DNA of 64,000 nt from Escherichia phage Ecwhy_1. The notes under the pieces were generated by a model. The model was given only the letters and a program-made list of their open reading frames with translations, did not search any database and had not been told where the DNA came from. The position numbers and the translations under genes are program-made. Within the stretch, counting starts at the first letter, position 1. Each line of letters opens with the position of its first letter. Location: the sequence record MH791411.1. One strand, given 5' to 3'. Below, piece after piece: positions 32,001 through 48,771 of this stretch.

Positions 32001-34741
32001 CTATTACTGGTGATCTGACCGTATCTGGAACTGTTACCCCTGGTGCAATTGACCTAAGTACTACCGATATTAGTTCTAAATCCCTAAGTACTACTGAAGG
32101 TGCTACAATTGGTGGTGACCTAGTTGTTAATGGTTCAATTGATTTAAGTTCTTCCAATGTTTCAGCAATTACCCTTGCTAGTTCTGGTAATACTACCGTT
32201 GGTGGTAACCTAGTACTAACAACTGGTGTTGTAACTGGCAGCCCATCTGTATCTGGCAACCTTTCAGTTGCAGGTACTGCGGCAGTAACTGGTGCAACTA
32301 CCCTAACTGATATCGTAAATATCGGTAAGAAAGTAACTGTAAGCACTGGTGGTATTCAAGTAGTTGCAGGTGGTATTAATACCGACGCTATATTAGTATC
32401 CGGTGATACAACTTTAAACAACACTACTGTAAACACTACCTTAAATGTAACTGGTCAAAGTACAGTAGCTGCACTAAGTGCTGCATCTTTGAATGTATCT
32501 GGTGATAGTACTGTTCAAAAACTAACAGTTGAAGGTGAATTGGTTCCACAAGGTGGTATCGACCTAACTGGTGCAGATATTTCTGCTAATAGTCTTGCAA
32601 CTGCTTCAACAATCACTGCAACTGGACTAAGCACACTAAGTGGTGGTGTAAGTACTACTAATGTTACTGCATCTGGTACAGTGAATGCTGGTAGTTTGGA
32701 TGTTACTAACAACGCAACCGTTGGTGGTAATTTGGGTGTAACTGGTTCATTAACTTCTGGTCCATTGAGTGTAACAGGTATTGCGAATATTACTGGTGTA
32801 ACAACTGTTGGTTCATTGGTTTCCGGTGCAGTATCTGGTAGTACTGGTACATTTAGTTCAACATTAGGTGTAACTGGTGCAGCTACATTTGACAATGACG
32901 TAACTGTTGAAGGTGTATTCACCCCAGCAGGTGGTTTAGACCTAACAACTTCTGATATTACGGCTAAGAGTTTGTCAGTATCTGAAACTATTCACTCTGA
33001 TGGTGCAGCTTCCTTTGGTGGTAACACAACAGTAGGTGGTACATTGGGTGTAACTGGTGCAGTAACTGCTCCATCGGCAACCCTAAGTGGTACTGGTACT
33101 GCACTAGCAGTAACTAATAATGCAACTATTGGTGGTACATTAGGTGTAACTGGTCAAGCATCACTTGGTTCTATAGTAACTTCTGGCGTTTCTGCAACAA
33201 GTGGCTCTTTCAGTACTACTCTTGGCGTTACTGGTGCTGCGACATTTGGTAACGATGTAACTGTAGTTGGAACACTAACTCCTGGTAGCTTAGATCTAAC
33301 TGGTGCAGATATCTCTGCTAAAACACTAACTCTATCTGAAACATTAAATGCAACAGGTAATACTACCCTTGGTGGAACATTAGGTGTAACTGGTTTAGCA
33401 ACAATTGGTGGAACACTAACGTCTGGTGCAGTAACTGCTCCATCTGCAACCTTGAATGGTTCAGGTACTGGTCTAGCAGTAACTAACAACGCAACCGTTG
33501 GTGGAACATTAGGTGTAGTTGGTCAAACAACACTAGGTTCTGTTAAAACTGGTGCAACTCTAACAGTTGGTACACCATTAGGTGAGCAGCCTGAAACTGT
33601 ACAGATTATGCCAGACACTTATATTGCTGGTAAACTACGTGTTGAAGGTGGTATTAACGCAGATATCGATGTTGGTGGACAAACACTAGAACCGTTTGCA
33701 GTAATAGCATCTGATTCTTTATCTTCTGCTGGTAATATTACTGCTGGTGCAGCAATTATTTCAAGTTCTGCAACAATTGGTGAAGTCGGTTCACAAAACA
33801 ACAACCTAATCGTTAATGGTAACGTTGTAAACAACGGTAACTTCACTGTTACTGGTGTACTAAATGCACAATTGAACCAAGCAGATTCCGATGTAGCTGT
33901 TAAGTCTTTGACTGCAACTAACAACGTATCTGCTGGAACCACATTAAGTGCAGGTACTGCAATTACTGCTGGTACTTCCATCACTGCAACTGGATTACTT
34001 AAAGGTAATACTTTAGAAGTTACTACTACTGGTTCATTTGGTGGTTTAGTAACTATGTCAAGTGGTGCAAATATCACTGGTGCAATGACCACTGCGGGTA
34101 ACATAACAGTGGGTGGCAATATCACTGCAACTGGTACTGCTGGATTCGCTGCAACAACCGTTTCTACAATTACAACAACAGGTTTGGCTACAATTGCAAG
34201 TGCATCCATTACTGGTAACGCAACAGTAGGTGGAACACTAACTGCGAATGGTAACGTAACATTAGGTGACGCAGCGGCAGACGTTCTAACCGTTAATGCA
34301 ACTTCATCATTTAAAGAAAATGCTGTGTTTGATAAGGCAGTAACAGTAACTGGTGCACTAACCACTACTAATGCTAACTTAACTACTACAACAGTAACTA
34401 CCAAAAAGTATGATGTAATCCCAACTCAAGTTACATCATCAGTAATTGCTCCAACCGGAACATGGACTCCAGATGGTACAAGTAACGTATACTTCATCAC
34501 TCTAGACCAAGATACCACGTTGGCTCCAATTACTGGCCTAATTGGTGGTGGTAAAGCTGCATCAGTATACATCTATGTTAAACAAGATACAACTGGTAAC
34601 AGAAACTTTACAACTGATGGTACTTATGCTGTTGTTGATGGTGAACTAAACAAAACTGCTGGTAGTGTGACCATTTACCAAGTAATTTATGATGGTGTAA
34701 GTCCAGTTACTGATTTGTTCATTGCACAACGTACTGCTTAA
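29042..34741 (+). CDS. Large repeat-rich fibrous protein (1,899 aa), paralog 2
   Basis: Same N-terminus (MYSIKTDLD...) and C-terminal domain as paralog 1; contains three tandem ~450-480-bp repeats (TPGAIDLSTTDI modules) at about 31.1, 31.55 and 32.03 kb; RBS AGGAGGGG. Confidence 0.7.
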   Translation: MYSIKTDLDVSGNSTVGKDLLVKGNAVFSNDLTVNGEVSFANAVFTAITAGSVNVTGALDVAGKATLSGGADVSGAATFAGNITAAGGTTAKFDNLEANSGSFDSVESTDITSTGTATFKDVNISGTLGGTFNLSDINATTLNVSGASALTGSVTLGANITGLASTANFRDIRIGPNEAGQAYRLNFGYTVPGQRPTVLLQNEVQSELMSPAKLNVLQTATFGDSSLSTYGITGNGLNKLDYVTISGNAIQSPTTPLLEVTKGKTKVVDLEVTGVATIPNIESSGTANFNNINVSGTIGGSFDLDDIQATTLSVSGASALTGAVTLGANITGLASTATFKAINLGQNTADANVKLGFAYTAPSARPTVLLANEVQSELMSPAKLNVLQTATFGSAALSTYGITGNGLNKLDYLTITGNATQNPATPQLQVGGKAILNDVEFTGTVTGLTVDVSGQDLTPKSVVAAEAIKGQTLESVGQTTVGSSLQVGGTATVTGALSAASGTFSGDVSGSKGIFSGSVSGTSATFTGDVSGDNATFSGDLSAVAGTFSGDVTVTGQTITVKDLVVTGTSTGVTAIADVDGLDIAPNKVDVTTTLSVAGESTLAGITATSINSTGAIAGTAISGSTITATGEISGASSVVTGLSKSGSVETGALKASSVETAIISNTAGVSITNNTSIAGNLSVTGTVTPGAIDLSTTDIDAKSLTTTEGANIGGNLVVAGTVDLSAADVAVKSLTSTGAVISSEGTVSSVLPKLSSTEANITTVTATTANATTLNVTGTSTLAGVNASGAITSATNITATGVLKGASVETASISNADGVAINNNTTITGNLDVSGTLTPGAIDLSTTDISSKSLTTTEGATIGGDLVVAGTVDLSAADVSVKSLASAETITSAGVITVSDTVNSSTLPKLITTDATIGAVHAATIETTGSSTLKQVSATEVTATSIVLNSVGEGLRVDNNANINGILSVNNITSTNDTIAIAKSAAITGDLTVSGTVTPGAIDLSTTDISSKSLSTTEGATIGGDLVVNGSIDLSSSNVSAITLASSGNTTVGGNLVLTTGVVTGSPSVSGNLSVAGTAAVTGATTLTDIVNIGKKVTVSTGGIQVVAGGINTDAILVSGDTTLNNTTVNTTLNVTGQSTVAALSAASLNVSGDSTVQKLTVEGELVPQGGIDLTGADISANSLATASTITATGLSTLSGGVSTTNVTASGTVNAGSLDVTNNATVGGNLGVTGSLTSGPLSVTGIANITGVTTVGSLVSGAVSGSTGTFSSTLGVTGAATFDNDVTVEGVFTPAGGLDLTTSDITAKSLSVSETIHSDGAASFGGNTTVGGTLGVTGAVTAPSATLSGTGTALAVTNNATIGGTLGVTGQASLGSIVTSGVSATSGSFSTTLGVTGAATFGNDVTVVGTLTPGSLDLTGADISAKTLTLSETLNATGNTTLGGTLGVTGLATIGGTLTSGAVTAPSATLNGSGTGLAVTNNATVGGTLGVVGQTTLGSVKTGATLTVGTPLGEQPETVQIMPDTYIAGKLRVEGGINADIDVGGQTLEPFAVIASDSLSSAGNITAGAAIISSSATIGEVGSQNNNLIVNGNVVNNGNFTVTGVLNAQLNQADSDVAVKSLTATNNVSAGTTLSAGTAITAGTSITATGLLKGNTLEVTTTGSFGGLVTMSSGANITGAMTTAGNITVGGNITATGTAGFAATTVSTITTTGLATIASASITGNATVGGTLTANGNVTLGDAAADVLTVNATSSFKENAVFDKAVTVTGALTTTNANLTTTTVTTKKYDVIPTQVTSSVIAPTGTWTPDGTSNVYFITLDQDTTLAPITGLIGGGKAASVYIYVKQDTTGNRNFTTDGTYAVVDGELNKTAGSVTIYQVIYDGVSPVTDLFIAQRTA

Positions 34742-35630: not shown

Positions 35631-35637
35631 ATCTAAA

Positions 35638-35644
35638 ATAAATA
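35638..35644 (+). promoter_or_regulatory. Late-promoter-like ATAAATA motif
   Basis: aATAAATAct 35 nt upstream of the ATG at 35679. Confidence 0.4.
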
Positions 35645-37644: not shown

Positions 37645-37676
37645 AAAAAAGGGAGACATAAGTCTCCCTTTTCTTT
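37645..37676. terminator. Bidirectional terminator at the strand-switch point
   Basis: AAAAAAGGGAGAC-ATAA-GTCTCCCTTTTCTTTT between the convergent tail fibre (+) and thymidylate synthase (-) genes. Confidence 0.75.
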
Positions 37677-38605
37677 TATACAGCCATTGGTGCTTTGATT
37701 GTTGGCATTGGATCGTAATTAACTAATTTGAAAGAATCCATAGTGAAATCTTCAATATCAGTAATAGTAGGATCTAGCCATAATTCTGGTAATGTACGTG
37801 GTTCACGTTGGAGTTGCTCTTTTACTTGTTCAATATGGTTTTGATAGATATGGCAGTCGCCACCATTCCAAATAAATTCACCAACATCTAACCCTGTAAT
37901 TTGTGCAATCATATGAGTTAGTAGTGAGTAACTACTAATATTAAATGGCACACCAAGGAATAGATCAGCACTACGTTGATGAAGAATACAACTTAGTTTA
38001 CCCTGTACAACACAAAACTGCACAAAGCTATGACAGGGTGGCAAAGTCATAGCATCAAGCTCACCAACGTTCCATGCACTTAGAATGTGACGACGACCGT
38101 ATGGATCAGTATTGATACCTTCAATAACTTGTTTTAGCTGGTCAGTTACACGACGCATAATAACACCATGTGAACCAGTATAATCAATAACTTTATACCC
38201 TTTATCTTTTAGTTCTTGAATTTCTTCAGTACTGGAACTGAATTTATAATCTTCCCATTCACGCCATTGTTTACCATAAACTGGGCCAAGCTCACCATCA
38301 GAATACCCAAGGCTTACACCTTGATTAAGGTAGTTGTCTGTCCAAATTGTTTTCTTTTCTACATCACGTGTCCCGTGTAAAATTTCACACAGACGACGCT
38401 CATCGTGAGAACCTTCAATAAACCATAACAATTCTGAAGTCATTGCTTTCCAAGCCAAACGTTTAGTAGTTACTGCTGGGAAACCTTCTTTTAGGTCAAA
38501 ACGCATTTGTTGTCCGATTAGCTTGATAGTGCCAACACCAGTACGATCAACGCTTTCGACACCTTGATCCAGAATTCTTTGATATAGTTCTTGTAGTTGT
38601 TTCAT
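37676..38605 (-). CDS. thyA: Thymidylate synthase (ThyA/Td type)
   Basis: Active-site LPPCH, GVPFN (Asn indicates dUMP specificity), DRTGVGT, HIYQNH and QLQREPR motifs; carries an insertion relative to E. coli ThyA as in T4/eukaryote-type enzymes. Confidence 0.9.
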   Translation of the reverse strand: MKQLQELYQRILDQGVESVDRTGVGTIKLIGQQMRFDLKEGFPAVTTKRLAWKAMTSELLWFIEGSHDERRLCEILHGTRDVEKKTIWTDNYLNQGVSLGYSDGELGPVYGKQWREWEDYKFSSSTEEIQELKDKGYKVIDYTGSHGVIMRRVTDQLKQVIEGINTDPYGRRHILSAWNVGELDAMTLPPCHSFVQFCVVQGKLSCILHQRSADLFLGVPFNISSYSLLTHMIAQITGLDVGEFIWNGGDCHIYQNHIEQVKEQLQREPRTLPELWLDPTITDIEDFTMDSFKLVNYDPMPTIKAPMAV

Positions 38606-39198
38606 TTTACGTCCTTGAAAAATGTAATAAAGTGTTCCATGTGTTTTTGTGTAGCATTACGTGAACCAATCCCAGTCCAATTACCGTGTGGTGCTGGTAT
38701 TGAGAATGTTTCAGTAAACTCTTTCAGTACTGTATCATAATAAAATACAGAGCGAGTGTTCATATCATAACAATATATTTCTGGATTGTCAACTGAATCC
38801 ATATACATCTGTACGGCCCATGCAGTTCCACCTGAAACTTGCGTAGGTGATGTAATATTTGCAATACAATATACTCTTTTTGTATTAAGTATCTGGTAAC
38901 TATTCCTTGCAAGTAAGTTATATACATACGAACCAGGCTTAGGAACTTTACGGCGTAAAGAGTAACATGCAATGTTTAATTGTTTTAATATTGAACTATC
39001 ACAAAGGATATTGGGTGGAATTTCTAATATAGTATTTTCATCTACGCTGCTTTGGTGACCCTTGAATGAAAAATTTATTACTTCAAATCCATTGTCTTTT
39101 GCATAGATAGAAAAAAGGCGGTCAGCACCTGCTGCCCCGCCACTGAAACATACATTAGATAAACCATTGATTGCTTCATCTAATTCTATTTTATTCAT
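38602..39198 (-). CDS. Rossmann-fold SLOG/DprA-like nucleotide-binding protein (tentative)
   Basis: FSGGAAGADR glycine-rich motif resembles the DprA/SLOG signature; stop overlaps the thyA start (ATGA), so the two are translationally coupled. Confidence 0.45.
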   Translation of the reverse strand: MNKIELDEAINGLSNVCFSGGAAGADRLFSIYAKDNGFEVINFSFKGHQSSVDENTILEIPPNILCDSSILKQLNIACYSLRRKVPKPGSYVYNLLARNSYQILNTKRVYCIANITSPTQVSGGTAWAVQMYMDSVDNPEIYCYDMNTRSVFYYDTVLKEFTETFSIPAPHGNWTGIGSRNATQKHMEHFITFFKDVK

Positions 39199-39203
39199 TT
39201 ATA

Positions 39204-39857
39204 TTATTTTGCTTTACGTTCAGCAAATGCCTGTTTAACTTTCTCAATTGCTTTGGTTTGTGAAATTCCTTCTGGGATTTCAATATAGAAAGTTTTGCTA
39301 TCAGGTGCTACAGGTGTTGCTTGAACTTGTGGACGTAGAGATGGTTCTAAGTTGTAAGCACGTTCAAAGTGCTCTTTAGCCAACTGCTCATAACGTTGTG
39401 CATCTTTAAGTAGTTGCTCAACAATGGTAGCTTCTTCAACAGAAGTATCGACTTCTTGTGGCTTGAATGGGTTGTATTCTTTAACTTTACCATCTTCATG
39501 TTTTTTAGCATCATTATCATTGATTGCGTTGTTTAGAACATCAAGAGAAATCTTACTGTTTCCACCAACATGCATATCAATATCACAAGTACGTGCACGA
39601 CGCAAATGTTGTAGATTATGAAGAACATCTAGCATTTTGCGACCGTCTAGATGACCAATCTTATGCATAACTTCCCACAAATCTACATTCGATTGACCTT
39701 GATTCATTACTAAATCTGCAACAGATTGAGCATATGCTTCAGGAAGTGAGTCGCGATAAACAATGAGACAATGTTCTGGATCATCAGGGAGTGAACGCCA
39801 TACCACAAATACTCGTGAACCCGTATTACGTACTACACCAACGTGACGAATAGCCAT
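39204..39857 (-). CDS. Hypothetical protein
   Basis: 217-aa ORF in the operon small acidic gene - 217 aa - SLOG-like - thyA. Confidence 0.55.
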   Translation of the reverse strand: MAIRHVGVVRNTGSRVFVVWRSLPDDPEHCLIVYRDSLPEAYAQSVADLVMNQGQSNVDLWEVMHKIGHLDGRKMLDVLHNLQHLRRARTCDIDMHVGGNSKISLDVLNNAINDNDAKKHEDGKVKEYNPFKPQEVDTSVEEATIVEQLLKDAQRYEQLAKEHFERAYNLEPSLRPQVQATPVAPDSKTFYIEIPEGISQTKAIEKVKQAFAERKAK

Positions 39858-39859
39858 TA

Positions 39860-40090
39860 TTATTCTCCTTTATTTTGTTCAGCAGCAGCTTGTGCAGCAT
39901 CAGCTTCTTCTTGTGCTTTGATATCTTCGAGTGCAGAGTTAGCAAACTCAACAAACTTAGATACGACTGGAGCAACATCAACAAGTTCTTCGACTTTAAA
40001 TGAATTACGAGCCACAGCAGCTTCCATGATTTTAGCAGCGTTGATTAGGTCGATTAGGGTTAGTTGAATTTTTTCTGGTTCTTGTTCCAT
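39860..40090 (-). CDS. Small acidic protein (first gene of the thyA operon)
   Basis: ATG at 40090 has GGAGAG 7 nt upstream; the track's longer ORF (to 40189) runs through the promoter/terminator and is rejected. The product is strongly acidic. Confidence 0.5.
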   Translation of the reverse strand: MEQEPEKIQLTLIDLINAAKIMEAAVARNSFKVEELVDVAPVVSKFVEFANSALEDIKAQEEADAAQAAAEQNKGE

Positions 40091-40124
40091 TTTAATACTC
40101 TCCATGTATGTTGTTACAAATATA

Positions 40125-40152
40125 ATTATATCACCTTTTTCCAAGCTGTCCC
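40125..40152 (-). promoter_or_regulatory. Sigma70-type promoter with extended -10
   Basis: Minus strand reads GGGACA-N16-(TGa)TATAAT: -10 at 40125-40130, -35 at 40147-40152. Confidence 0.5.
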
Positions 40153-40153
40153 G

Positions 40154-40187
40154 CTGAAAAAAGTAGAGAACGGAATTTTCCGTTCTC
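40154..40187 (-). terminator. Rho-independent terminator after VWA gene
   Basis: GAGAACGG-loop-CCGTTCTC hairpin followed on the minus strand by a U-tract (plus-strand A-run 40157-40162). Confidence 0.55.
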
Positions 40188-40199
40188 ATTATTTAGTAC

Positions 40200-41609
40200 T
40201 TAGCTACGTTGACGCTTTTTGTCAGCTTCATATTCGTAGTGTACAGTTTCGCCAAATGGTGCTTGTTTGTTAGGATTACTGTGGATAACAAACAGTGTCT
40301 TACAGTAATCAGGATCACCCCATGACTGCCACGGCTCACCATCTGTAAACATAATAAGCTGTTTAGGCTTATAGTTGTCATGCTTCATATGAACCCATAC
40401 TGCTTCAAAGTCAGTACCACCACCACCTTTCACTGGATATTCGAGAATCTTACTCTCTTCACCAGTTTTGTAATCTTTCACAGTATAAACTTCAGTATCG
40501 AACGTCATGATACGGATTTTAAATTGTTTAAACTGCTTAGTGATACCCAGTACTTCACTGATGAAATCACGGAGCATATCTTCAGAGATAGAACCGGATG
40601 CATCTAGTGCAATTGCAATATCAATATCATCATCTGGTTTCATACCAGGGAAGATTGGATTCCCGTAGAATGAACCAGAACTACCAAAACCAGCACCCCA
40701 TGAACGACGATTAGGATTTTGATAAGTTGCATCAGACTTCAACCAGCTACGCAGTGTGCGGTGAAGTTTGGAACGCCAGTCAATCTTAGGTTCTTTGAAG
40801 TTGTTAATCATACGTGCGATTTCAGCAGGAGTACCACCTGCACGAGCAGCATTCATCATTGCTGTTTTGAAATCATCCATATAATCACGTTTTTGTTTAT
40901 CACTTGAACCACCTTCTTGACCTTCTTGTGGAACGTCATGCTGGTCGATTGTTGTACCTTTGCCTTTACCATCTTTGATATCACCAAAAGTACCGCGTGA
41001 TTTACCTTCACCCTCACCACTACCAGCCTGTGGATTTCCTTCACCTTCTCCGTCTTGATCCTGCTTATCTTCTTCTTCGAGAATGTTATAAATCTCTTCA
41101 GCAGTCATACCATCGTACTTTTTATCGTACAGCCATTGGCTTTGGATTTTACCAATTTTATCACGAACAAGAATCTGGTTAATTGCATAGTCAGCAGCAC
41201 GGTTATAACGCTGCGGGTCACGCATACCACGACGCAAGAAGTGGTCATATGCACAGTGAAGAATCTCATGACAGATAACTGCAATCAGGTTTTCATCGGT
41301 CAAACCTTCTGTCATTTCTTTAAGTTGTTCTTCAGTTACTTCAGGATGTTTCTCACGAATTGCTTCTTCGTATGCTGACTTTTTGGATTGGTCCTGAATA
41401 CCCATGATGAATTCTACGTTGTAGAATAAATGCTTACCATCTACAGCCAAAGTACGACACCATGTGTTGTTTGCAACTGGACGCAGACGAGAAGCCAGTA
41501 CACCAAAGAATGGGAATGTTAGCATTAAAGATGTGCGAGCTAAGATCAGACGATCTTGACATTCTTTCTGGAGAGCCGGAGTAACATCACTGAAACGTTT
41601 ATCTGACAT
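40200..41609 (-). CDS. VWA-domain protein with N-terminal HExxH metallopeptidase-like domain (MoxR partner, DUF2201-like)
   Basis: HEILHCAYDH motif in the N-terminal half and MIDAS motif DASGS in the C-terminal half; directly downstream of the MoxR-like ATPase. Confidence 0.75.
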   Translation of the reverse strand: MSDKRFSDVTPALQKECQDRLILARTSLMLTFPFFGVLASRLRPVANNTWCRTLAVDGKHLFYNVEFIMGIQDQSKKSAYEEAIREKHPEVTEEQLKEMTEGLTDENLIAVICHEILHCAYDHFLRRGMRDPQRYNRAADYAINQILVRDKIGKIQSQWLYDKKYDGMTAEEIYNILEEEDKQDQDGEGEGNPQAGSGEGEGKSRGTFGDIKDGKGKGTTIDQHDVPQEGQEGGSSDKQKRDYMDDFKTAMMNAARAGGTPAEIARMINNFKEPKIDWRSKLHRTLRSWLKSDATYQNPNRRSWGAGFGSSGSFYGNPIFPGMKPDDDIDIAIALDASGSISEDMLRDFISEVLGITKQFKQFKIRIMTFDTEVYTVKDYKTGEESKILEYPVKGGGGTDFEAVWVHMKHDNYKPKQLIMFTDGEPWQSWGDPDYCKTLFVIHSNPNKQAPFGETVHYEYEADKKRQRS

Positions 41610-41635
41610 TTGTATTTCCTCGTTTAGTTAAGATA

Positions 41636-41661
41636 AAAGAAGGATACCATGTGGTATCCTC
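41636..41661 (-). terminator. Hairpin/terminator between the MoxR and VWA genes
   Basis: GGATACCA-CA-TGGTATCC near-perfect palindrome followed on the minus strand by UUCUUUUAU; may act as an attenuator within the operon. Confidence 0.45.
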
Positions 41662-41684
41662 CTTGTCAACACTCTTTTTAATTA

Positions 41685-43013
41685 TTAACCAAGAGAGCGT
41701 GCTTTACGTACTAGGTCAGAGTACTTCATAACGAAGTCTTTAAACGCTGGTACATCTTTAATCGTAATCGCTACTTTATGAAGCGTGATGGTACGAATCG
41801 CCAGTACTGCCAGTTCTGCTTGAGTTGCAGAGAAGTTATGGTCTAGGAAGGTGATGAAGTTGTTGCACAGCTTACCCCAATCTTCCACTGGTAGACGTTG
41901 TTCTTGCTTCTCATTGTAGAGGTCGATAATTTTGTAAACCAGATTCAGAGTGATGAAGTAGTTCGCGGAAATATCAAGCGAAGCATCAATCTCTTTAATC
42001 TCACCCTGTAGGATGGACATGGTATCTGGTAGTTTAGCTACGTTATCAACATACTCGATGTATTCAGTTGCTACGCCTTCACCAACACGACCTGCAATCA
42101 TCGCACGGAACACTTCTTTATCAATGTTCTTAACTTTCTTCAGATCTTCGTAGCGTGCTACTGCTTCCCATGAACGTGGAGAAGTACCACCACAGTGAGA
42201 AGGATCTTGTGGGCTAAGGGTGTTGAAGTGTTTAGCACCAGTGTTGTTGATGAACGCTACAGTTGCTGGGTTCAAACGCTTACCAATCGCATAATCGTTA
42301 ATCCAATCTTGATGATAAGGAATCATTTCGATGTGGGTCATACGGTCACGCAGTGGTGTAGCTAGAGAGAACGTTACACCGCCATCAGTTTCACGGTTAC
42401 CTGCTGCGAGAATCAGTGCAGTCTTAGGTAGCTTCATCTCACCAACACAACGGTCGAGGATTAGCTGATAAGACGCTGCCTGTACAATCGGCATTGCAGA
42501 GTTGATTTCGTCAAACAGAATAACACCTTTCCAATCTGGAGACAGTTTCAGTACTTTAGGTGCTGCCCACACAACTGCTGTTTCAGCGATGTAATCTTGT
42601 GCACTAGCCAGTTCAGATTCAATCAGTTGCTTACCATCCATATCAAGGAACACTTTCTCTGGAACTGGGATACCGCGAAGGTCACTTGGTTCAATCTGAG
42701 ACAAACGGAAATCGATAAAGTTAGTGTCTTGGTCGATTAGTTTGGCTTCAAACGCTGCCAGTTCACGGCGAAGTTGATCAGCATTTTCAGTATCAGCTTC
42801 GATTTGTTGTTTCATGAACTCAATTTTTGCCACGTTATCTTTACGCAGTGGGTAGTTCTCATCAGCGTATTGACGTGCGATAGCAGATTTACCGATACCA
42901 GGGCTACCCCAAATCATCAGGCTATCTTGAATCATGTCAGCCAGTGCCATTGCTTCTTTAGCTTTCTTAGGAGTCAGTTTTACGTTCAGGATATCGTTGT
43001 TTTGAGTAGACAT
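41685..43013 (-). CDS. MoxR/CbbQ-type AAA+ ATPase
   Basis: Walker A GSPGIGKS, Walker B ILFDEINSA, sensor AAGNRE; RBS AAGGAAA upstream of the ATG. Confidence 0.8.
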   Translation of the reverse strand: MSTQNNDILNVKLTPKKAKEAMALADMIQDSLMIWGSPGIGKSAIARQYADENYPLRKDNVAKIEFMKQQIEADTENADQLRRELAAFEAKLIDQDTNFIDFRLSQIEPSDLRGIPVPEKVFLDMDGKQLIESELASAQDYIAETAVVWAAPKVLKLSPDWKGVILFDEINSAMPIVQAASYQLILDRCVGEMKLPKTALILAAGNRETDGGVTFSLATPLRDRMTHIEMIPYHQDWINDYAIGKRLNPATVAFINNTGAKHFNTLSPQDPSHCGGTSPRSWEAVARYEDLKKVKNIDKEVFRAMIAGRVGEGVATEYIEYVDNVAKLPDTMSILQGEIKEIDASLDISANYFITLNLVYKIIDLYNEKQEQRLPVEDWGKLCNNFITFLDHNFSATQAELAVLAIRTITLHKVAITIKDVPAFKDFVMKYSDLVRKARSLG

Positions 43014-43053
43014 GTATATTTTCCTTTTGTTGGATAAAATCGTTTAGGTTTCT

Positions 43054-43082
43054 ATTATAGCCAATCCGTGGGCAAAAGTAAA
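43054..43082 (-). promoter_or_regulatory. Candidate proximal promoter of MoxR operon
   Basis: Minus strand reads CTTTAC-N17-TATAAT; -10 at 43054-43059. The -35 is weak. Confidence 0.35.
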
Positions 43083-43123
43083 GGAACTGTGTTAAAAGAA
43101 TTTTTAACTTATCAGTTCCTTTG
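43080..43123 (-). promoter_or_regulatory. Long inverted repeat in the MoxR 5' leader
   Basis: Perfect 10-bp arms AAAGGAACTG / CAGTTCCTTT separated by a 24-nt AT-rich, itself partly palindromic, loop. Confidence 0.4.
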
Positions 43124-43184
43124 TTACTTCATGAATCATCCGTGTATTTAAAAAGGCATTTCTCTTTGCCGTCTTGATGTGGTC

Positions 43185-43212
43185 ATTATATCACATCGTT
43201 CAGGCTTGTCAA
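43185..43212 (-). promoter_or_regulatory. Sigma70-type promoter (tandem copy 1)
   Basis: Minus strand reads TTGACA-N16-(TGTGa)TATAATGACCAC; -10 at 43185-43190, -35 at 43207-43212. Confidence 0.6.
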
Positions 43213-43276
43213 CAACTTTTTTATTTCTTTTTCAATCTCACATCTTGTGATTTTGAAAACTTGCTTCGTGGTGGTC

Positions 43277-43304
43277 ATTATAACACATCATTCGGCGTTG
43301 TCAA
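43277..43304 (-). promoter_or_regulatory. Sigma70-type promoter (tandem copy 2)
   Basis: Minus strand reads TTGACA-N16-(TGTGt)TATAATGACCAC; about 45 bp is a direct repeat of copy 1, 90 bp away. Confidence 0.6.
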
Positions 43305-43329
43305 CATCTTTTTTTCTTTATTTTCGAAG

Positions 43330-43707
43330 CTACATGTGCATCGAAAATAACATTCTAAAATCATCACCACACAATGTTAACTCTGTAACTATCATTGCGT
43401 CCGAGAGGTATATGTACTGCCCTTCTACATAGTAGGGTGAAGTACATATCCTATCAAGCGATGTAAAGATTATAGAACTTTTGAACTCTCTTTGCAAGGG
43501 GATTTTTGTAAATTCGTAAAGAATGTTTTCTTTACAAATTGTATATCCAAACTTGCTAAGTCTTAAACCACCGCCAGTTCTGAAATTTTCAAAAATTGAC
43601 ATCAGAAGCATACGGTCTGTTAATTCAGCGTCTGATCCATGTACTTCTCTAACTTTTAAAAGTACATCGTTTTGAAATTCAGTACTGTTGTGTGGTTCAG
43701 GAATCAT
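43330..43707 (-). CDS. Hypothetical protein
   Basis: 125-aa ORF; no motif recognised. Confidence 0.5.
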   Translation of the reverse strand: MIPEPHNSTEFQNDVLLKVREVHGSDAELTDRMLLMSIFENFRTGGGLRLSKFGYTICKENILYEFTKIPLQREFKSSIIFTSLDRICTSPYYVEGQYIYLSDAMIVTELTLCGDDFRMLFSMHM

Positions 43708-43710
43708 AAA

Positions 43711-44103
43711 TTACATCCCCACGAAACCCTGTCTTGCTGCATATGAAGGAGCATCTTTAACTTTATAGTCTTGGACACCATCTTTACCAATTTTCGGACC
43801 CATATCTTTGGTTCCGAAGCAGCAATCAGTGGATTCATCAACTTCTTCAGTACTTTCATCATTATATCGAACATCCGATAAAATGTCACACGCTTTTTGA
43901 AGCTTTTCTACGATTTCTTTTTGATCTTCACCTGATTTAACCTTATCCACAATGTGGATAAGGCATTCGGTGATATCTTTAAGTAAATCGGTGGCAACAG
44001 CATCAGAAGGAGTCTCAACTGCAAAACTTTCTTCTTCAGTAGATTCTTCACTAGAAGTGATTTCATCTAATGCTTCAACCAATTCACGATAATTATATCC
44101 CAT
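43711..44103 (-). CDS. Acidic hypothetical protein
   Basis: 130-aa ORF rich in Glu/Asp/Ser (STEEESF, ESTEEVDEST). Confidence 0.55.
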   Translation of the reverse strand: MGYNYRELVEALDEITSSEESTEEESFAVETPSDAVATDLLKDITECLIHIVDKVKSGEDQKEIVEKLQKACDILSDVRYNDESTEEVDESTDCCFGTKDMGPKIGKDGVQDYKVKDAPSYAARQGFVGM

Positions 44104-44104
44104 C

Positions 44105-45097
44105 TTATTTGTCCCCTAGAAATTGTTGATATTTCTTCTGGAGACTTTCGAAAATGTCTTCGACTTCTTCATCGCTTTCATCTTCTAGTTCTTCGTTACC
44201 TTCCACTGACTCATCACTCTCATTAACATTGAGTGGGTTGTCACCTAGAGCAGTACCTGGAAACTTAGGTTCAAATTTGTGAACACGGTTCTCGTTACCG
44301 TCATTGTCATAGTACTCTGGTTCAGGACGATTGTCAACATCTTCATCAACGACACGTCTCCAGTAGAACTTGTTACCCTTGGTAATAACAACAAAGTGGT
44401 CACCTTCTACACCATTAGTTTTAGCTTGACCGTCACGAACAGCATCAGCTTCAGTGTTGTAAGGACCAAAATCAGTACTGTCACCTTGTTCTTCATCTTC
44501 AGAGATGGTTAGGTCTGGTAGGAAAGTGTTTTCTTCAACTTTAACTTCAGTATCTGGGTTACCTTCTACTGAATATTCATCTTCTGGTTCGTCTTGAAGA
44601 CCAGCTAGAGATAGCATACGACTGAAATCGAATTCTTCTTCGATGATTTCTTCTTCTTCTTCCTCTTCTTCAACTGATTCTAGTTGAGGTTGACCGGAAA
44701 GATCTAAAGAAAACTCTTCTTCATCTGCAACACCAGGCTCTTCGAACTCTGCATCCATACTTACTTCTTCAGAATCACCACCAAAATCACCAGCTTCAGC
44801 AGATAGTGAGTCAGCAGCTACTTCCAATGGGTCTTCAACTGGTGCATCAATCGCACCATCCATTGTACCACCAACTTCTTCTTCAGCACCCGCACCAATG
44901 GAATCCATGTCGAGTGGAGCGATTGGTGGTAGAGAAGGGGTCATAGACCCCATAGAAGGAACTGGAGCAGCAACAGGAGAAGCTTGACGCTCTGCTTGAC
45001 CAGCTAATGCAAGCATACGAGATAGTGTTTCTAGATCTTCAGATTCTAGACCTGCGATATCGATTTTAACTTGTGCTTCATTAATTTTTTTAGCCAT
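44105..45097 (-). CDS. Highly acidic protein with poly-Glu tract
   Basis: Contains EEEEEEEEIIEEEFDF and long Asp/Glu-rich segments; RBS AAGGA. Confidence 0.6.
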   Translation of the reverse strand: MAKKINEAQVKIDIAGLESEDLETLSRMLALAGQAERQASPVAAPVPSMGSMTPSLPPIAPLDMDSIGAGAEEEVGGTMDGAIDAPVEDPLEVAADSLSAEAGDFGGDSEEVSMDAEFEEPGVADEEEFSLDLSGQPQLESVEEEEEEEEIIEEEFDFSRMLSLAGLQDEPEDEYSVEGNPDTEVKVEENTFLPDLTISEDEEQGDSTDFGPYNTEADAVRDGQAKTNGVEGDHFVVITKGNKFYWRRVVDEDVDNRPEPEYYDNDGNENRVHKFEPKFPGTALGDNPLNVNESDESVEGNEELEDESDEEVEDIFESLQKKYQQFLGDK

Positions 45098-45119
45098 TTT
45101 AAATAAATCCTTTTAGTTA

Positions 45120-46673
45120 TCAATCATTCTTATTTAATGATTTTAAAATTTGCACTGTTTCATCCTTTTTACCAGATAGTAAAATGTCAGCAGCAATTAG
45201 AGAAACCTCATCACCACGCGTTAAGAGTACTGTAATTTTCTTAGCGTAAGGTGATTCTTTAATTCGTGAAGCCAATGATTGAACTTCATCACCAGGAGCA
45301 GGAACTTCAGGTTCTGGCTCTGATACAGGTTCTGGTTCTTTAGTAGGTTCAGCTTTTGGTTCAACTACATCAGTACTTGATACTTCAGCATCTACTTTCT
45401 CTTCAGGTTCTTCTTCTTTCTTATCAGCATGTTCTGCATCATAACGAGCAAGAATGTCATCAGCAGTTGATTTTGGAATCAATTTACCTTCTGCACTGAT
45501 AAAGCGGTTACCACCGATATAAGAATACTCTGTGCCTTTCTTAGATTTTACTTTAGTTCCGATTTTCATTGCACCAGAACTGTTATGGCGAATTATATCA
45601 CGTTGAGCAGCACGTTCAACACTTTTTGCAGCACTAGAATTTAGTTGTTTTTTAGTTTCTACATCAAACCATGCATTTTTTTGTTTAATGTATGTTTTAC
45701 CTTTATTTGAAGTAATGCGGTAACCATGTGGAACCACAACAGATTCAGTTTCTTCAATCTCTTCATCTGCTTCATTAATGGATTCTTTTGTTGCGAATAC
45801 TGGCTGTTTTACTGGTTGTTTAGGTTGTTCTGGCTTTTCACCTGAACCAAAACGTTGTTCACCTGATTCATGATCACCAGTTAGTGAAGGAAAATCACCA
45901 GGGTTAGCCTTAACAAATTGCTGATATGCATTAAAGATTACATGTGCATTTTGTTCTGGAATTACAACATTACCATCATTATCACAAAATTCTTTACCAT
46001 TCCATTCTGAACGAGTATTACCTTGTACTAATGTAGATTTAATTGGAATTAGTTTGTTTTTTGGTGCTAATTGGCGAGCAATACGCATACCTTCATCGGA
46101 AAGTTTACGTGTCATTGCTGGGTCAACTGGACGTCCAGATTTTGCATCAACAAAACGGTGATTTTTAGGGATGAATTTAAATCCACTAACTTCCATACCT
46201 GCTGGAATAGAAATATCATCAGCATATGGTGGAAGGATATAGAATTTTAGGGAGTTCCATTCTTTTTGTAGAGTTTCTTTTGAAACATTATATACACGGT
46301 GGTCATCTGCCATTAGTTCAGTGATAATTTCACTTTCAGTTAGTAGAATTCCATCTTTAGAATTGAAACGATTTTCACCAAGAAATGTACACTCTTTACC
46401 TTCAAGAATATATTTTTTACCAATTTTATATTCACTAGAAGATAGATTGTGCTCAACAATCTGTTGTCGAGCACTTGCGTACATGGATGGGTATTTTTTA
46501 GGGTCTACCATTAACATATTATTGTCGTTAAACCAGAAACCTTCTAGAAATACATATTTGCCACCAGTGTGAGAAGTATATACATATCCATTAGGTACTG
46601 TGGTAGTTTCAGTACTGAAAAAATTATCCATGTGTTGATTCTCCTTAAGAAAGCATACGCAAAAGTTGTTCAC
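45120..46673 (-). CDS. Hypothetical protein with internal sequence repeats
   Basis: Repeated modules (PNGYVYTSHTGGKYVFLEG / PHGYRITSNKGKTYIKQK; KIGKKYILEGKECTFLGENRF / KIGTKVKSKKGTEYSYIGGNRF) and a Pro/Glu-rich linker. Confidence 0.55.
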   Translation of the reverse strand: MNNFCVCFLKENQHMDNFFSTETTTVPNGYVYTSHTGGKYVFLEGFWFNDNNMLMVDPKKYPSMYASARQQIVEHNLSSSEYKIGKKYILEGKECTFLGENRFNSKDGILLTESEIITELMADDHRVYNVSKETLQKEWNSLKFYILPPYADDISIPAGMEVSGFKFIPKNHRFVDAKSGRPVDPAMTRKLSDEGMRIARQLAPKNKLIPIKSTLVQGNTRSEWNGKEFCDNDGNVVIPEQNAHVIFNAYQQFVKANPGDFPSLTGDHESGEQRFGSGEKPEQPKQPVKQPVFATKESINEADEEIEETESVVVPHGYRITSNKGKTYIKQKNAWFDVETKKQLNSSAAKSVERAAQRDIIRHNSSGAMKIGTKVKSKKGTEYSYIGGNRFISAEGKLIPKSTADDILARYDAEHADKKEEEPEEKVDAEVSSTDVVEPKAEPTKEPEPVSEPEPEVPAPGDEVQSLASRIKESPYAKKITVLLTRGDEVSLIAADILLSGKKDETVQILKSLNKND

Positions 46674-47190
46674 GCTGCTCTGGACTTAATTTTTGTAGAG
46701 CATCAGGGATACTAGAACCTTGTGCTTTTGGCTGTTCCTGTGGTGCTGGTTGTGGAGCATTGTCAGGTTGAGCTTGTGGTGCAGGACGTTGTTGTTCTTC
46801 ACCTTTATCATCATCACGATAATCATTCATCAAGTCACGTGCTGCTGCCAATAGAGCAGAACCAACATCTTTAGGAGTAAAAGTACGACGACTGTTATTT
46901 CCCAGGTGTTTTATATCAAGGTTATTTCCTTTGAAGAATTGTGCAACATCAGCATATGGTACTGATGGCTGTGCTTTACCGTATTTGCGACCAACATAGC
47001 GTTTAAATTCAGCCCAAAGACGGTTTGCTTCTGCACCAACTTCTTGTGCACCTTGTTCTACTTGACCACTACCGAAAAAGCCTTTTACTTTTCCTTTTGC
47101 ACTATCTACTGCACTTTGTGAACGACTATATGGACGAGCTTCATTTAGCTCTTCATCATTATAGTCTAACATTTCATTAAGTATACTCAT
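46645..47190 (-). CDS. Hypothetical protein
   Basis: 181-aa ORF with a Gln/Pro-rich C-terminal region; overlaps the downstream gene by 29 nt. Confidence 0.5.
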   Translation of the reverse strand: MSILNEMLDYNDEELNEARPYSRSQSAVDSAKGKVKGFFGSGQVEQGAQEVGAEANRLWAEFKRYVGRKYGKAQPSVPYADVAQFFKGNNLDIKHLGNNSRRTFTPKDVGSALLAAARDLMNDYRDDDKGEEQQRPAPQAQPDNAPQPAPQEQPKAQGSSIPDALQKLSPEQREQLLRMLS

Positions 47191-47193
47191 GTC

Positions 47194-47727
47194 TCAATCC
47201 TTTTTACCAAAACCAGCACTCATATATTGAGAGTATTTATTGTCACTTTTAACTGCTTCAATCGCATCTTTAACTGCGGTTACAGCACGTTCTTCACCAG
47301 CTAAATCATGGCTGTCTTCTGGTTTGCCAAAATCAACACCAATTACTGGTTCGTAATCGTCAAAGTCAATATCATCTTCGAGTTCGGTCATTTCTTGTTG
47401 ACGTGGTTCATCTTTACTACGTACACGGATTAGAGCTTCAGTCATACTTAGTAGGTTGCCAATTTCATACATTAGTACGTTTGATTGAACACCACGGTGG
47501 CATTTGAAATCAAACATCCAAATTTCACCACAATCTAATTCATAAAAATCTAGTGGTCTTTCCATGAAAATAGTTTTCTTTAGTGCACCAATATCAAATG
47601 CATCATAACGATCCATTAGGCGTTGTGATACTTTACTTAGTTGCTCATTGGTAGGTTCAACTGCAAACTTGACTCGGTATTCAAAAACTGGTTTTTTATC
47701 CGTTAGGATTTGTTGTAATCTATTCAT
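47194..47727 (-). CDS. Hypothetical protein
   Basis: 177-aa ORF; no motif recognised. Confidence 0.5.
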   Translation of the reverse strand: MNRLQQILTDKKPVFEYRVKFAVEPTNEQLSKVSQRLMDRYDAFDIGALKKTIFMERPLDFYELDCGEIWMFDFKCHRGVQSNVLMYEIGNLLSMTEALIRVRSKDEPRQQEMTELEDDIDFDDYEPVIGVDFGKPEDSHDLAGEERAVTAVKDAIEAVKSDNKYSQYMSAGFGKKD

Positions 47728-47754
47728 TTTAATAACTCCATAAGGTCGTTTAAG

Positions 47755-48771
<1,017 letters not shown>

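What the first reader, a model, noticed from the sequence alone, without database searches (positions are those of the whole stretch)
39860..45097. Several strongly acidic proteins, including a poly-Glu protein
A 76-aa acidic protein heads the thyA operon behind its own promoter, and the 130-aa and 330-aa proteins at 43711-45097 are Asp/Glu-rich, the latter with EEEEEEEEIIEEEFDF. Acidic phage proteins can be DNA mimics (anti-restriction) or scaffold or internal head proteins.
Basis: inference. Interest (0 to 1): 0.4.

Follow-up and report, generated by a model that had tools for sequence, protein, structure and literature searches.

The report
Acidic virion proteins of jumbo coliphage
Two very acidic, mostly floppy proteins of a giant E. 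coli phage are known particle components that probably sit inside the head, not DNA mimics, while the third acidic protein is an unrelated small early protein of unknown role.

Summary
The window is a RaK2/121Q-type jumbo coliphage, 99.6% identical to fEgEco12. The 76-, 130- and 330-aa proteins are the three most acidic of 52 gene products, but they belong to two unrelated units.

The 330- and 130-aa proteins lie in a tightly packed cluster of virion-protein genes conserved from RaK2 to a Vibrio jumbo phage. Their homologues were found by mass spectrometry in RaK2, CBB and phAPEC6 virions. AlphaFold models are mostly disordered acidic linkers joining short conserved motifs. No sequence or fold match to any known family was found, including DNA mimics and phiKZ inner-body proteins.

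Both proteins start with an invariant 7-10-residue leader ending in (L/I)-x-E followed by A or S. That is the cleavage and targeting signature of T4-type prohead protease substrates. This lineage encodes such a protease, and all of its prohead-core proteins carry the same leader.

Best reading, about 0.5: they are capsid-targeted internal head or prohead-core proteins, and candidates for the undefined inner body of 121Q/phAPEC6.

The 76-aa protein sits behind a terminator and an extended -10 promoter at the head of the thyA operon. It was never seen in virions and belongs to a small orphan family. A DNA-mimic role is untested. Overall interest is modest.

The parts
44105..45097 (-). p330: 330-aa polyacidic virion protein (PHROG 15988). 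Homologues are RaK2 gp050, CBB_213, 121Q gp560 and phAPEC6 gp267c.
   Evidence: AF2 model
45077..45097 (-). p330 residues 1-7, MAKKINE. Candidate capsid-targeting or propeptide leader ending I-N-E before Ala.
   Evidence: E7 is invariant and P3 is always I/L/V in 22 homologues. T4 gp24 starts MAKINE.
44990..45076 (-). p330 residues 8-36. The most conserved block, holding the first LSRMLALAGQAE motif and a predicted helix at 19-38.
   Evidence: Peptide 12-27 is inferred to be present in mature phAPEC6 and RaK2 virions.
44483..44983 (-). p330 residues 39-205. Disordered acidic region (net -51) of variable length between homologues. It includes the Glu run (residues 143-158, 44624-44671) and the second FSRMLSLAG motif (44597-44623).
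44342..44482 (-). p330 residues 206-252. The only confidently folded module (beta-alpha-beta-beta, pLDDT about 88-91). Present in 1-3 tandem copies in homologues.
   Evidence: no fold match
44117..44176 (-). p330 residues 308-327. Conserved C-terminal helix (VEDIFESLQKKY..F) after an acidic tail.
43711..44103 (-). p130: 130-aa acidic virion protein (PHROG 14971). Homologues are RaK2 gp051, CBB_214 and 121Q gp561. Its start is translationally coupled to the p330 stop.
   Evidence: AF2 model
44074..44103 (-). p130 residues 1-10, MGYNYRELVE. Nine of these ten residues are invariant. Leu8 and Glu10 sit at the positions that govern processing of the T4 capsid-targeting sequence, followed by Ala or Ser.
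43855..44004 (-). p130 residues 34-83. Helical hairpin (pLDDT 74-86) flanked by disordered acidic linkers.
45120..48312 (-). Upstream genes of the same packed cluster:
- p185, 47755-48312
- p177, 47194-47727
- p181, 46645-47190
- p503, 45120-46631

Three of them also start with short leaders ending (L/I/V)x(E/D).
47234..47763 (-). Two AATAAATA motifs, at 47756-47763 and 47234-47241, upstream of p177 and p181. They are candidate late promoters feeding p181-p503-p330-p130-p125.
   Evidence: inference
39860..40090 (-). p76: 76-aa acidic protein and first gene of the thyA operon. It has a helix-loop-helix core and an acidic tail, and belongs to an orphan family (PHROG 13789).
40125..40187 (-). Terminator-like hairpin (40166-40187), then an extended -10 sigma-70-type promoter (40125-40152) ahead of p76.
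37645..39857 (-). Rest of the operon:
- p217, 39204-39857
- DprA/SLOG-like gene, 38602-39198
- thyA, 37676-38605
- terminator, 37645-37674

Best explanation
**p330 and p130.** These are late, virion-packaged proteins. They are probably delivered into the assembling prohead by short N-terminal leaders and trimmed by the phage's T4-type (Peptidase_S77) prohead protease after (L/I)-x-Glu. They would then stay inside the head as internal or prohead-core proteins.

- p330 is a long polyanionic, mostly disordered chain. It carries about six short conserved motifs plus one small folded module, which suggests a flexible multivalent tether or space-filler rather than an enzyme or a rigid mimic.
- p130 is a helical hairpin between acidic linkers.
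- Together with neighbouring cluster genes, they are plausible components of the radiation-sensitive inner body seen in 121Q and phAPEC6 heads, or of the material ejected with the DNA.

Shown: the acidity, the disorder, the conservation, the synteny, the presence of homologues in virions, the leader motif, and the protease in this lineage.

Inferred: the actual cleavage, the location inside the head, and what the proteins do there.

**p76.** This is a separate small cytoplasmic protein. It is transcribed from a host-type promoter together with thyA, and its function is unknown.
For: **Identity of the phage**
- The window is 99.6% identical to fEgEco12 and 84% to 121Q/phAPEC6.

**Presence in virions**
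- p330 homologues: phAPEC6 gp267c, CBB_213 (5 peptides) and RaK2 gp050.
- p130 homologues: CBB_214 and RaK2 gp051.
- PHROGs labels both families 'virion structural protein'.

**Conserved gene order**
- The cluster order is conserved in 121Q, CBB, RaK2 and a Vibrio jumbo phage.

**Leader motif**
- p330 INE7 before A/S is invariant in 22 homologues. p130 LVE10 before A/S is invariant in 12, and RaK2 and CBB have LME9.
- T4 gp21 cleaves after L/I-x-E. T4 internal proteins use 10-19-residue N-terminal targeting propeptides whose residues 8 and 10 govern processing (PMC9026906).
- T4 gp67, gp68, gp21, gp22, gp24, Inh and Alt all have such a site within their first 10 residues. T4 gp15 and gp19 do not. 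T4 gp67 is itself a poly-Asp/Glu protein.
- phAPEC6 has a T4-type head module: Peptidase_S77 at 1e-20, plus Gp23 and Gp20 families. Its capsid protein, scaffold, protease, gp228c and gp229c all carry the leader. The scaffold has 26 (L/I/V)xE motifs.
- The protease gene is found in 33 Escherichia phage records.
- In the window, 3 of 6 cluster proteins carry the strict leader against 3 of 46 others (p = 0.016). With the relaxed pattern it is 5 of 6 against 6 of 46 (p = 0.001). None of 10 recognisable tail proteins has it.

**Structure**
- p330: 162 of 330 residues have pLDDT below 50. p130 is a hairpin with disordered linkers.

**An unassigned internal structure exists**
- An inner body of unknown composition is reported for 121Q and phAPEC6.
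Against: - No experiment places either protein inside the head. The mass spectrometry used whole virions.
- The genes lie next to tail-tube and head-completion genes, about 55 kb from the capsid, protease and scaffold module.
- (L/I)xE is a short motif. The window statistics are post hoc, and about 6% of unrelated proteins have it by chance.
- My test on internal conserved Glu residues was not specific. Five of 8 conserved Glu have a hydrophobic residue two positions before, but so do 3-4 of 10 conserved Asp.
- Peptide counts are low: one peptide each in phAPEC6 and RaK2. This could mean low copy number, although the sequence yields few usable tryptic peptides.
- p503 in the same cluster lacks the leader, and p177 has Asp in the window phage. 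In T4, Asp at that position permits targeting but blocks cleavage.
Confidence: 0.5

Rival explanations
1. p330 and p130 are virion-associated but not inside the head. They could be neck, tail or surface accessories, for example anchors of the hair-like fibres, or assembly chaperones that co-purify with particles.
For: - The genes lie directly downstream of the sheath, three tube paralogues and the gp4-like head-completion gene.
- The hairs and decoration densities of phAPEC6 and CBB have no assigned genes.
- Non-structural proteins (ThyA, a MoxR-type ATPase, an SSB) also appear in these virion proteomes, so detection is not proof of a structural role.
Against: - None of the recognisable tail proteins in the window has the N-terminal (L/I)xE leader, whereas all prohead-core proteins of phAPEC6 and T4 do.
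- A chain that is about 50% disordered and polyanionic would not give the ordered fibres seen by electron microscopy.
- In T4 the genes after sheath and tube are the portal and prohead-core genes, so the position is compatible with a head role.
Confidence: 0.2
2. The proteins are pure assembly scaffold. The acidic chains fill the prohead or set its size, are cut up by the protease and mostly expelled. Only remnants stay, with no role in the mature virion or in infection.
For: - T4 gp22, gp67 and gp68 behave this way, and gp67 is comparably acidic.
- p330 has further conserved (L/I/V)xE sites at residues 200, 252, 293 and 317.
- Sequence coverage in virions is low.
Against: - The single 16-residue peptide reported for both phAPEC6 gp267c and RaK2 gp050 fits residues 12-27. 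In CBB, 5 peptides were seen. So N-terminal and probably C-terminal parts persist in mature virions.
- The low coverage is expected anyway, because the acidic region yields tryptic peptides of 105-117 residues.
- The conserved-site pattern is not specific to Glu.
Confidence: 0.15
3. This is the first reader's lead idea: DNA mimicry or anti-restriction. Either p76 acts as an early cytoplasmic decoy, or p330 and p130 are ejected with the DNA and soak up DNA-binding defence proteins.
For: - All three are strongly acidic.
- p76 has an early-type promoter, and it is small and helical like Ocr, Arn, Gp5.9 and similar proteins.
- T4 IPI shows that a capsid-targeted internal protein can be an anti-restriction factor.
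Against: - There is no sequence or fold similarity to any solved structure, which would include the solved DNA mimics. The best Foldseek E-value was 2.
- p330 and p130 lack a rigid scaffold on which to array carboxylates.
- p76's acidity lies mostly in a poorly conserved tail, while the conserved core is amphipathic.
- Small acidic ORFs also precede frd-td in T4 without any known mimic function.
- There is no PADLOC or anti-defence evidence (not searched), and no functional data exist.
Confidence: 0.1

Closest known systems
T4 prohead-core protein gp67 and its acidic internal peptide, with gp68 and gp22
   Same: - Extreme acidity: gp67 has pI 4.05, 44% D+E and a poly-Asp/Glu tail.
- An N-terminal L-I-E followed by Ala within the first 6 residues.
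- Substrate of a Peptidase_S77-type protease.
- Present in the prohead core.
   Different: - No sequence similarity to p330 or p130.
- gp67 is 80 aa and is encoded between portal and protease. In this lineage that position is taken by other genes, phAPEC6 gp229c and gp228c.
- p330 is 4 times longer, with conserved motifs and a folded module.
T4 internal proteins IPI, IPII, IPIII and Alt, which carry capsid-targeting sequences
   Same: - Short N-terminal propeptide ending (L/I)xE.
- In p130 the Leu and Glu sit at residues 8 and 10, as in the IPIII targeting sequence.
- Encoded outside the main head module.
- Packaged in the head and ejected. IPI is an anti-restriction factor.
   Different: - From general knowledge, not checked here: T4 internal proteins are basic or neutral folded proteins, whereas p330 and p130 are polyacidic and largely disordered.
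- Cleavage and ejection are unproven here.
phiKZ inner-body proteins (Pfam PF12699, phiKZ_IP)
   Same: - Several abundant head-internal proteins encoded in one cluster.
- N-terminally processed after Glu by a gp21-related protease.
- They form a bubblegram-visible inner body, as also seen in 121Q and phAPEC6.
   Different: - Not homologous. The p130 hit to PF12699 is below threshold (18.6 against 27 bits), is seen in only 4 of 12 family members, and has no Foldseek support.
- The cleavage motif differs: S/A-x-E in phiKZ against L/I-x-E.
Phage DNA-mimic proteins (T7 Ocr, T4 Arn, ArdA)
   Same: Small to medium size with a strongly negative net charge. Arn has net charge per residue of -0.10, against -0.12 to -0.22 here.
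   Different: - Those are compact folds that present carboxylates in DNA-like arrays (general knowledge).
- The models here are mostly disordered.
- No sequence or structure match was found.

Membership tests
T4-type prohead-protease substrates / capsid-targeted internal head proteins | Protein is physically present in proheads or virions. | tested here: met
   Published virion proteomes of homologues, read. These used whole virions, not isolated heads.
T4-type prohead-protease substrates / capsid-targeted internal head proteins | Short N-terminal propeptide ending in L/I-x-Glu. | tested here: met
   - p330 I-N-E7 and p130 L-V-E10 are invariant across their families.
- The same layout is found in T4 gp24, gp67, gp68, gp21, gp22 and Alt, and in the phAPEC6 core proteins.
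T4-type prohead-protease substrates / capsid-targeted internal head proteins | The phage encodes a gp21-family (Peptidase_S77) protease. | tested here: met
   - phAPEC6 gp227c matches PF03420 at E = 1e-20.
- The gene is present in 33 Escherichia phage records, about the number that hold p330 (32).
- It was not seen in the window itself.
T4-type prohead-protease substrates / capsid-targeted internal head proteins | The propeptide is actually removed during maturation. | not testable with these tools
   No peptide-level data are held. Coverage arithmetic only shows that residues 12-27 of p330 homologues persist.
T4-type prohead-protease substrates / capsid-targeted internal head proteins | Location inside the capsid shell. 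| not testable with these tools
   This needs head/tail fractionation, immuno-EM or bubblegrams of mutants.
phiKZ_IP (PF12699) inner-body proteins | Significant match to the family profile or fold. | tested here: not met
   - p130 scores 18.6 bits against a 27-bit cutoff, and only 4 of 12 members reach E < 0.1.
- Foldseek against BFVD returns only self-matches.
- p330 has no hit.
DNA-mimic anti-restriction proteins (Ocr, ArdA, Arn type) | Compact fold displaying a DNA-like array of carboxylates, or homology to a known mimic. | tested here: not met
   - AF2 gives p330 mean pLDDT 56 with 49% of residues below 50. p130 is a hairpin with disordered linkers.
- No PDB sequence or Foldseek hits.
DNA-mimic anti-restriction proteins (Ocr, ArdA, Arn type) | Available at the moment of DNA entry, through early expression or pre-packaging. 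| tested here: inconclusive
   - p76 has an extended -10 sigma-70-type promoter.
- p330 and p130 are in virions, but ejection is unknown.
DNA-mimic anti-restriction proteins (Ocr, ArdA, Arn type) | Inhibits a restriction or other DNA-binding enzyme. | not testable with these tools
   This needs plating and binding assays.

The most novel reading that the evidence does not exclude
The conserved cluster from p185 to p130, with the polyanionic and mostly disordered p330 as its main tether, builds the inner body of 121Q/phAPEC6-type jumbo phages.

That would be an inner body assembled from T4-style leader-targeted proteins, unrelated in sequence to the phiKZ inner-body family, so a convergent solution.

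Its acidic chains would organise the DNA spool by repulsion. On infection they would be ejected ahead of or with the genome, where they could also act as decoys for DNA-binding host defences.
Probability: 0.15. Interest if true: 0.6.

Novelty: new member of a known kind. Interest (0 to 1): 0.3.

Why it matters
An inner body has been seen in 121Q and phAPEC6 heads, but its proteins are unknown. The phAPEC6 authors found no phiKZ-like candidates and could only guess at RCC1-like proteins.

A conserved cluster of virion proteins with T4-type targeting leaders gives concrete candidates that can be tested. It also offers possible short leader tags for loading cargo into a very large capsid.

The result also warns against reading acidity alone as DNA mimicry. 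Beyond that, these are ordinary uncharacterised structural genes that databases already label 'virion structural protein'.

Tried and rejected
- **Known-family searches.** Pfam, PHROGs and PDB sequence or profile searches of all three proteins and their family alignments found no known family.
- **phiKZ_IP lead for p130.** Rejected: below threshold, seen only in close relatives, and no structural support.
- **Fold searches.** Foldseek of the p330 model against PDB gave nothing better than E = 2. The afdb50 library was unavailable.
- **p330 against phAPEC6 gp228c.** This is the acidic protein in the gp68 position. No similarity was found.
- **Internal cleavage sites in p330.** I tested whether conserved Glu residues specifically follow a hydrophobic residue two positions before. 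The Asp control showed the pattern is not specific, so I make no claim about internal cleavage.
- **p330 and p130 motifs elsewhere.** I searched about 140 kb of this lineage for the RMLxLAG motif and the other conserved motifs of the two proteins. They occur only in p330 and p130.
- **p76 family.** A profile search of 1.84 billion proteins found only 44 small standalone relatives and no informative fusions. A weak histone-fold (HapC) hit at E = 0.095 is not significant. There is no similarity to T4 Arn, AsiA or the frd.1-3 ORFs.
- **Late promoters.** The T4 late-promoter core TATAAATA is absent from the window. AATAAATA is a tentative substitute only.
- **Peptide-level data.** I looked for them in the CBB and RaK2 supplements. 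Only coverage percentages are held.
- **Literature.** No paper was found that characterises these proteins.

Full report
**What the window is.** Megablast of 39000-46700 finds 54 phage records. The best are 99.4-99.6% identical over the full length (Escherichia phages EC.P1, fEgEco12, WPEC3). 121Q, PBECO4 and phAPEC6 (Asteriusvirus) follow at about 84%. These are RaK2-like jumbo myoviruses of about 350 kb. All genes from about 37.6 kb to the right end of the window are on the minus strand.

**Checking the observation.** The three ORFs exist as described.

| Protein | Coordinates | pI | Net charge |
|---|---|---|---|
| p76 | 39860-40090 | 4.3 | -9 |
| p130 | 43711-44103 | 4.2 | -18 |
| p330 | 44105-45097 | about 4.05 | -74 (28.5% D+E) |

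- The sequence EEEEEEEEIIEEEFDF is residues 143-158 of p330, window 44624-44671.
- Among 52 gene products of the window, these three rank first to third by net charge per residue: -0.224, -0.138 and -0.118. The next is -0.079.
- So the acidity is a real outlier, most clearly for p330.

**The finding covers two separate units.**

*The thyA operon.*
- Immediately after the stop of the VWA/DUF2201 gene there is a terminator-like hairpin (40187-40166).
- Then comes GGGACA-16-TG-n-TATAAT (40152-40125), a GGAG, and the p76 ATG at 40090.
- p76, p217, a DprA/SLOG-like gene and thyA abut or overlap, and a strong terminator follows thyA at 37674-37645.
The longer 109-aa ORF would start inside the terminator and is not the annotated start.

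*The virion-protein cluster.*
- p330 and p130 sit in a tightly packed run: gp4-like head completion, p185, p177, p181, p503, p330, p130, p125.
- The run has no sigma-70-type promoter of its own.
- It is separated by a 317-bp gap, holding two perfect tandem sigma-70 promoters, from the MoxR-type ATPase and VWA pair downstream.
- AATAAATA motifs 30-55 nt upstream of p177 and p181 are candidate late promoters. The canonical TATAAATA is absent from the whole window.
- The gene order is conserved in 121Q, phAPEC6, CBB, RaK2 and even a Vibrio jumbo phage.

**What is already known about p330 and p130.**
- PHROGs labels both families 'virion structural protein'.
- These labels trace back to virion mass spectrometry:

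| Phage | p330 homologue | p130 homologue |
|---|---|---|
| phAPEC6 | gp267c, 1 peptide, 4.9% | gp266c, not detected |
| CBB | CBB_213, 5 peptides, 18.9% | CBB_214, 1 peptide |
| RaK2 | gp050, 1 peptide, 5.3% | gp051, 2 peptides, 18.7% |

- Neighbours p503, p181 and p177 were also detected in one or more of these proteomes.
- No homologue of p76 appears in any of the lists that were read.
- I found no paper that assigns a function or a location.
- 121Q and phAPEC6 heads contain a bubblegram-visible inner body of about 91 x 18 nm. Its proteins are unknown, and the phAPEC6 authors found no similarity to the phiKZ inner-body proteins.

**Anatomy of p330.**
- It has 88 relatives, all from RaK2-like phages and metagenomes.
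- The alignment shows islands of near-invariance separated by acidic segments of variable length:
  - residues 1-36 (MxKKINEAxVKIDxxGLESxDLETLSRMLALAGQAE);
  - a second copy of the RM(L/S)xLAG motif at 159-167;
  - LLPDLSLxE at about 193-200;
  - a module of about 45 aa at 206-252;
  - GTALGDNPL;
  - a C-terminal helix, VEDIFESLxxxY.
- AF2 with this alignment gives mean pLDDT 56, with 162 of 330 residues below 50. Only the small beta-alpha-beta-beta module is confident, at about 88-91.
- Homologues carry one to three copies of that module.
- There is no PDB sequence hit and no Foldseek hit better than E = 2.
- The Glu run itself is not conserved in length. The acidity is.

**Anatomy of p130.**
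- AF2 predicts an N-terminal helix (5-18), a disordered acidic linker, a helical hairpin (34-56 and 61-83, pLDDT 74-86), another acidic linker and a conserved C-terminal APSYAARQGFVGM.
- The Pfam phiKZ_IP hit (E = 1.2e-3, 18.6 bits against a 27-bit cutoff) appears in only 4 of 12 members.
- Foldseek against viral models returns only self-matches.
- I therefore reject membership of that family.

**The N-terminal leader.** This is the most informative feature.
- p130 begins M-x-Y-N-Y-R-E-L-V-E followed by A or S. Nine of these ten residues are invariant in 12 homologues, and RaK2 and CBB have ...RKLME followed by A or S.
- p330 begins MAKKINE followed by A. Glu7 is invariant and the residue two before it is always I, L or V in 22 homologues.
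- Neighbours show the same layout: p185 (V/I)xE9 before ALGLP, p181 LNE6 and LNE17, and p177 ILT(D/E)10.
- According to the T4 literature, the gp21 protease cuts after L/I-x-E. Internal proteins are targeted to the prohead core by 10-19-residue N-terminal propeptides, in which residues 8 and 10 govern processing (PMC9026906).
- Reading T4 directly, every prohead-core protein I looked at has such a site within its first 10 residues:
  - gp67, MEGLIE followed by A;
  - gp68;
  - gp21;
  - gp22;
  - gp24, MAKINE...;
  - Inh;
  - Alt, MELITE.
- T4 tail proteins gp15 and gp19 do not.
- T4 gp67 is itself a poly-Asp/Glu protein: pI 4.05, 44% D+E.
- phAPEC6 has the T4 head-gene order and families (Portal_T4, Peptidase_S77 at 1e-20, Gp23). 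Its capsid protein, scaffold, protease, gp228c and gp229c all carry an (L/I)xE at residues 7-10. The scaffold has 26 (L/I/V)xE motifs.
- The protease gene occurs in 33 Escherichia phage records, about the same number as p330.
- Within the window, the strict leader is in 3 of 6 cluster proteins against 3 of 46 others (Fisher p = 0.016). The relaxed pattern gives 5 of 6 against 6 of 46 (p = 0.001). None of ten recognisable tail proteins has it.
- These tests are post hoc and the motif is short, so I treat them as supportive, not decisive.

**A control that limits the claim.**
- In p330, five of eight conserved Glu columns have an invariant hydrophobic residue two positions upstream.
- The same is true of three or four of ten conserved Asp columns.
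- So I make no claim that the internal sites are cleaved.

**A small inference from published coverage.**
- 4.9% of the 326-aa phAPEC6 gp267c is 16 residues. The only tryptic peptide of that length, even allowing one missed cleavage, is residues 12-27 (IDIAGLESDDLETLSR).
- RaK2 gp050 (5.3% of 304 aa, again 16 residues) has the same solution among three.
- So the conserved N-terminal block downstream of the 7-residue leader persists in mature virions.
- This fits removal of a short leader, or no processing at all. It argues against wholesale degradation.
- The acidic middle yields tryptic peptides of 105-117 residues, which explains the low coverage without assuming low abundance.

**Interpretation.**
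- *Shown:* p330 and p130 are conserved, late-cluster, virion-associated, largely disordered polyacidic proteins with a T4-type N-terminal leader, in a lineage with a T4-type prohead protease.
- *Inferred (confidence about 0.5):* they are targeted into the prohead core, trimmed, and retained as internal head proteins.
- p330, with its string of short conserved motifs on a polyanionic chain, would act as a flexible multivalent tether or space-filler.
- The cluster is a reasonable candidate for the inner body or for ejected proteins.
- *Rivals:*
  - a location outside the head, in neck, tail or hairs, or a co-purifying assembly factor (0.2);
  - scaffold that is mostly degraded (0.15);
  - DNA mimicry or anti-restriction (0.1).
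- The last rival has no positive evidence beyond charge. It is not excluded, because T4 IPI shows that a leader-targeted internal protein can be an anti-restriction factor.

**p76.**
- It is not part of that story.
- Its family has 17 close relatives. A profile search of 1.84 billion representatives found only 44 clusters, all standalone proteins of 62-137 aa.
- The family has a conserved amphipathic helix-loop-helix core (LxLxDIxNAxxIxExAIxRxxFxxxELxxVxxVxxKFxxF). It also has a variable Glu/Gln/Ala-rich tail that usually ends in Glu, often Gly-Glu.
- There are no Pfam or PDB matches. A HapC histone-fold hit at E = 0.095 is not significant.
- It shows no similarity to T4 Arn, AsiA or the small ORFs upstream of T4 frd-td.
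- Two of those T4 ORFs are as acidic as p76 or more so: frd.3 and frd.2. A small acidic ORF at the head of a nucleotide-metabolism operon is therefore unremarkable.
- Its function is open.

**Verdict.**
- Databases already list p330 and p130 as virion structural proteins. What this analysis adds is the leader motif and the link to T4-type prohead-core and internal proteins, plus negative results for the DNA-mimic and phiKZ_IP readings.
- I rate it a new member of a known kind, with modest interest (0.3).
- The most novel reading not excluded is that this cluster builds the 121Q-type inner body: probability 0.15, interest 0.6 if true.

Noticed in passing
whole window; motifs at 19564-19571(-), 35637-35644(+), 47234-47241(-), 47756-47763(-), 54532-54539(-): The T4 late-promoter core TATAAATA is absent from all 64 kb (0 found, 7.0 +/- 2.8 expected), although the window is mostly structural genes. 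AATAAATA occurs 6 times, always on the coding strand, and 5 of these lie within about 60 nt upstream of a start codon. It may be a variant late promoter.
   Followed up: partly
43185-43304 (-), upstream of 41685-43013 and 40200-41609: Two perfect consensus sigma-70 promoters (TTGACA-16-TATAAT, each with a TG extension) stand in tandem ahead of a MoxR-type AAA ATPase and a DUF2201 metallopeptidase/VWA protein (N4 gp24/gp25-like). A terminator-like hairpin lies between the two genes at 41664-41637. The ATPase homologue was found in phAPEC6 virions with 6 peptides.
   Followed up: no
39860-40090 (-), p76 family: In the 33 family members aligned, the variable acidic tail ends in Glu in about 24 and in Gly-Glu in about 13. 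This is an unexplained conserved C-terminus. The family profile has a weak, non-significant hit to the histone-fold protein HapC/NF-YB (E = 0.095).
   Followed up: partly
45120-46631 (-), p503 (ORF open to 46673): This virion protein has an internal duplication. Residues 7-100 align with 294-388, scoring 136 against 34.6 +/- 5.7 for shuffles. It also has a Pro/Glu-rich acidic linker at about residues 414-460.
   Followed up: partly
L007:10216-11064 (phAPEC6 gp228c, outside the window): This is a third extremely acidic virion protein of the lineage: 282 aa, 31% D+E, pI 4.06, with leader MANLKLLQE followed by A. It sits between portal and protease, the position of T4 gp68, and is unrelated in sequence to p330.
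   Followed up: partly
48343-48771 (-): The gp4-like head completion protein matches the TnsA-like endonuclease N-terminal domain, PF08722, at E = 8.6e-17.
   Followed up: no
37676-38605, 39204-39857, 41685-43013 (-): Homologues of ThyA, p217 and the MoxR-type ATPase are listed in the phAPEC6 virion proteome with 3, 1 and 6 peptides. This is either contamination or real packaging of non-structural proteins.
   Followed up: no
23958-28892 and 29042-34741 (+): Two very large adjacent genes (1644 and 1899 aa) share nearly identical N-termini (MYSIKTDLD...) and similar upstream sequence (AACTAAATATA.GTATATTAAC). They are probably paralogous fibre proteins with a shared promoter element.
   Followed up: no
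38764-38792 (-), inside the DprA/SLOG-like gene: A promoter-like site with 11 of 12 matches and a TG extension lies about 160 nt upstream of thyA. thyA may therefore be transcribed independently of p76 as well.
   Followed up: no
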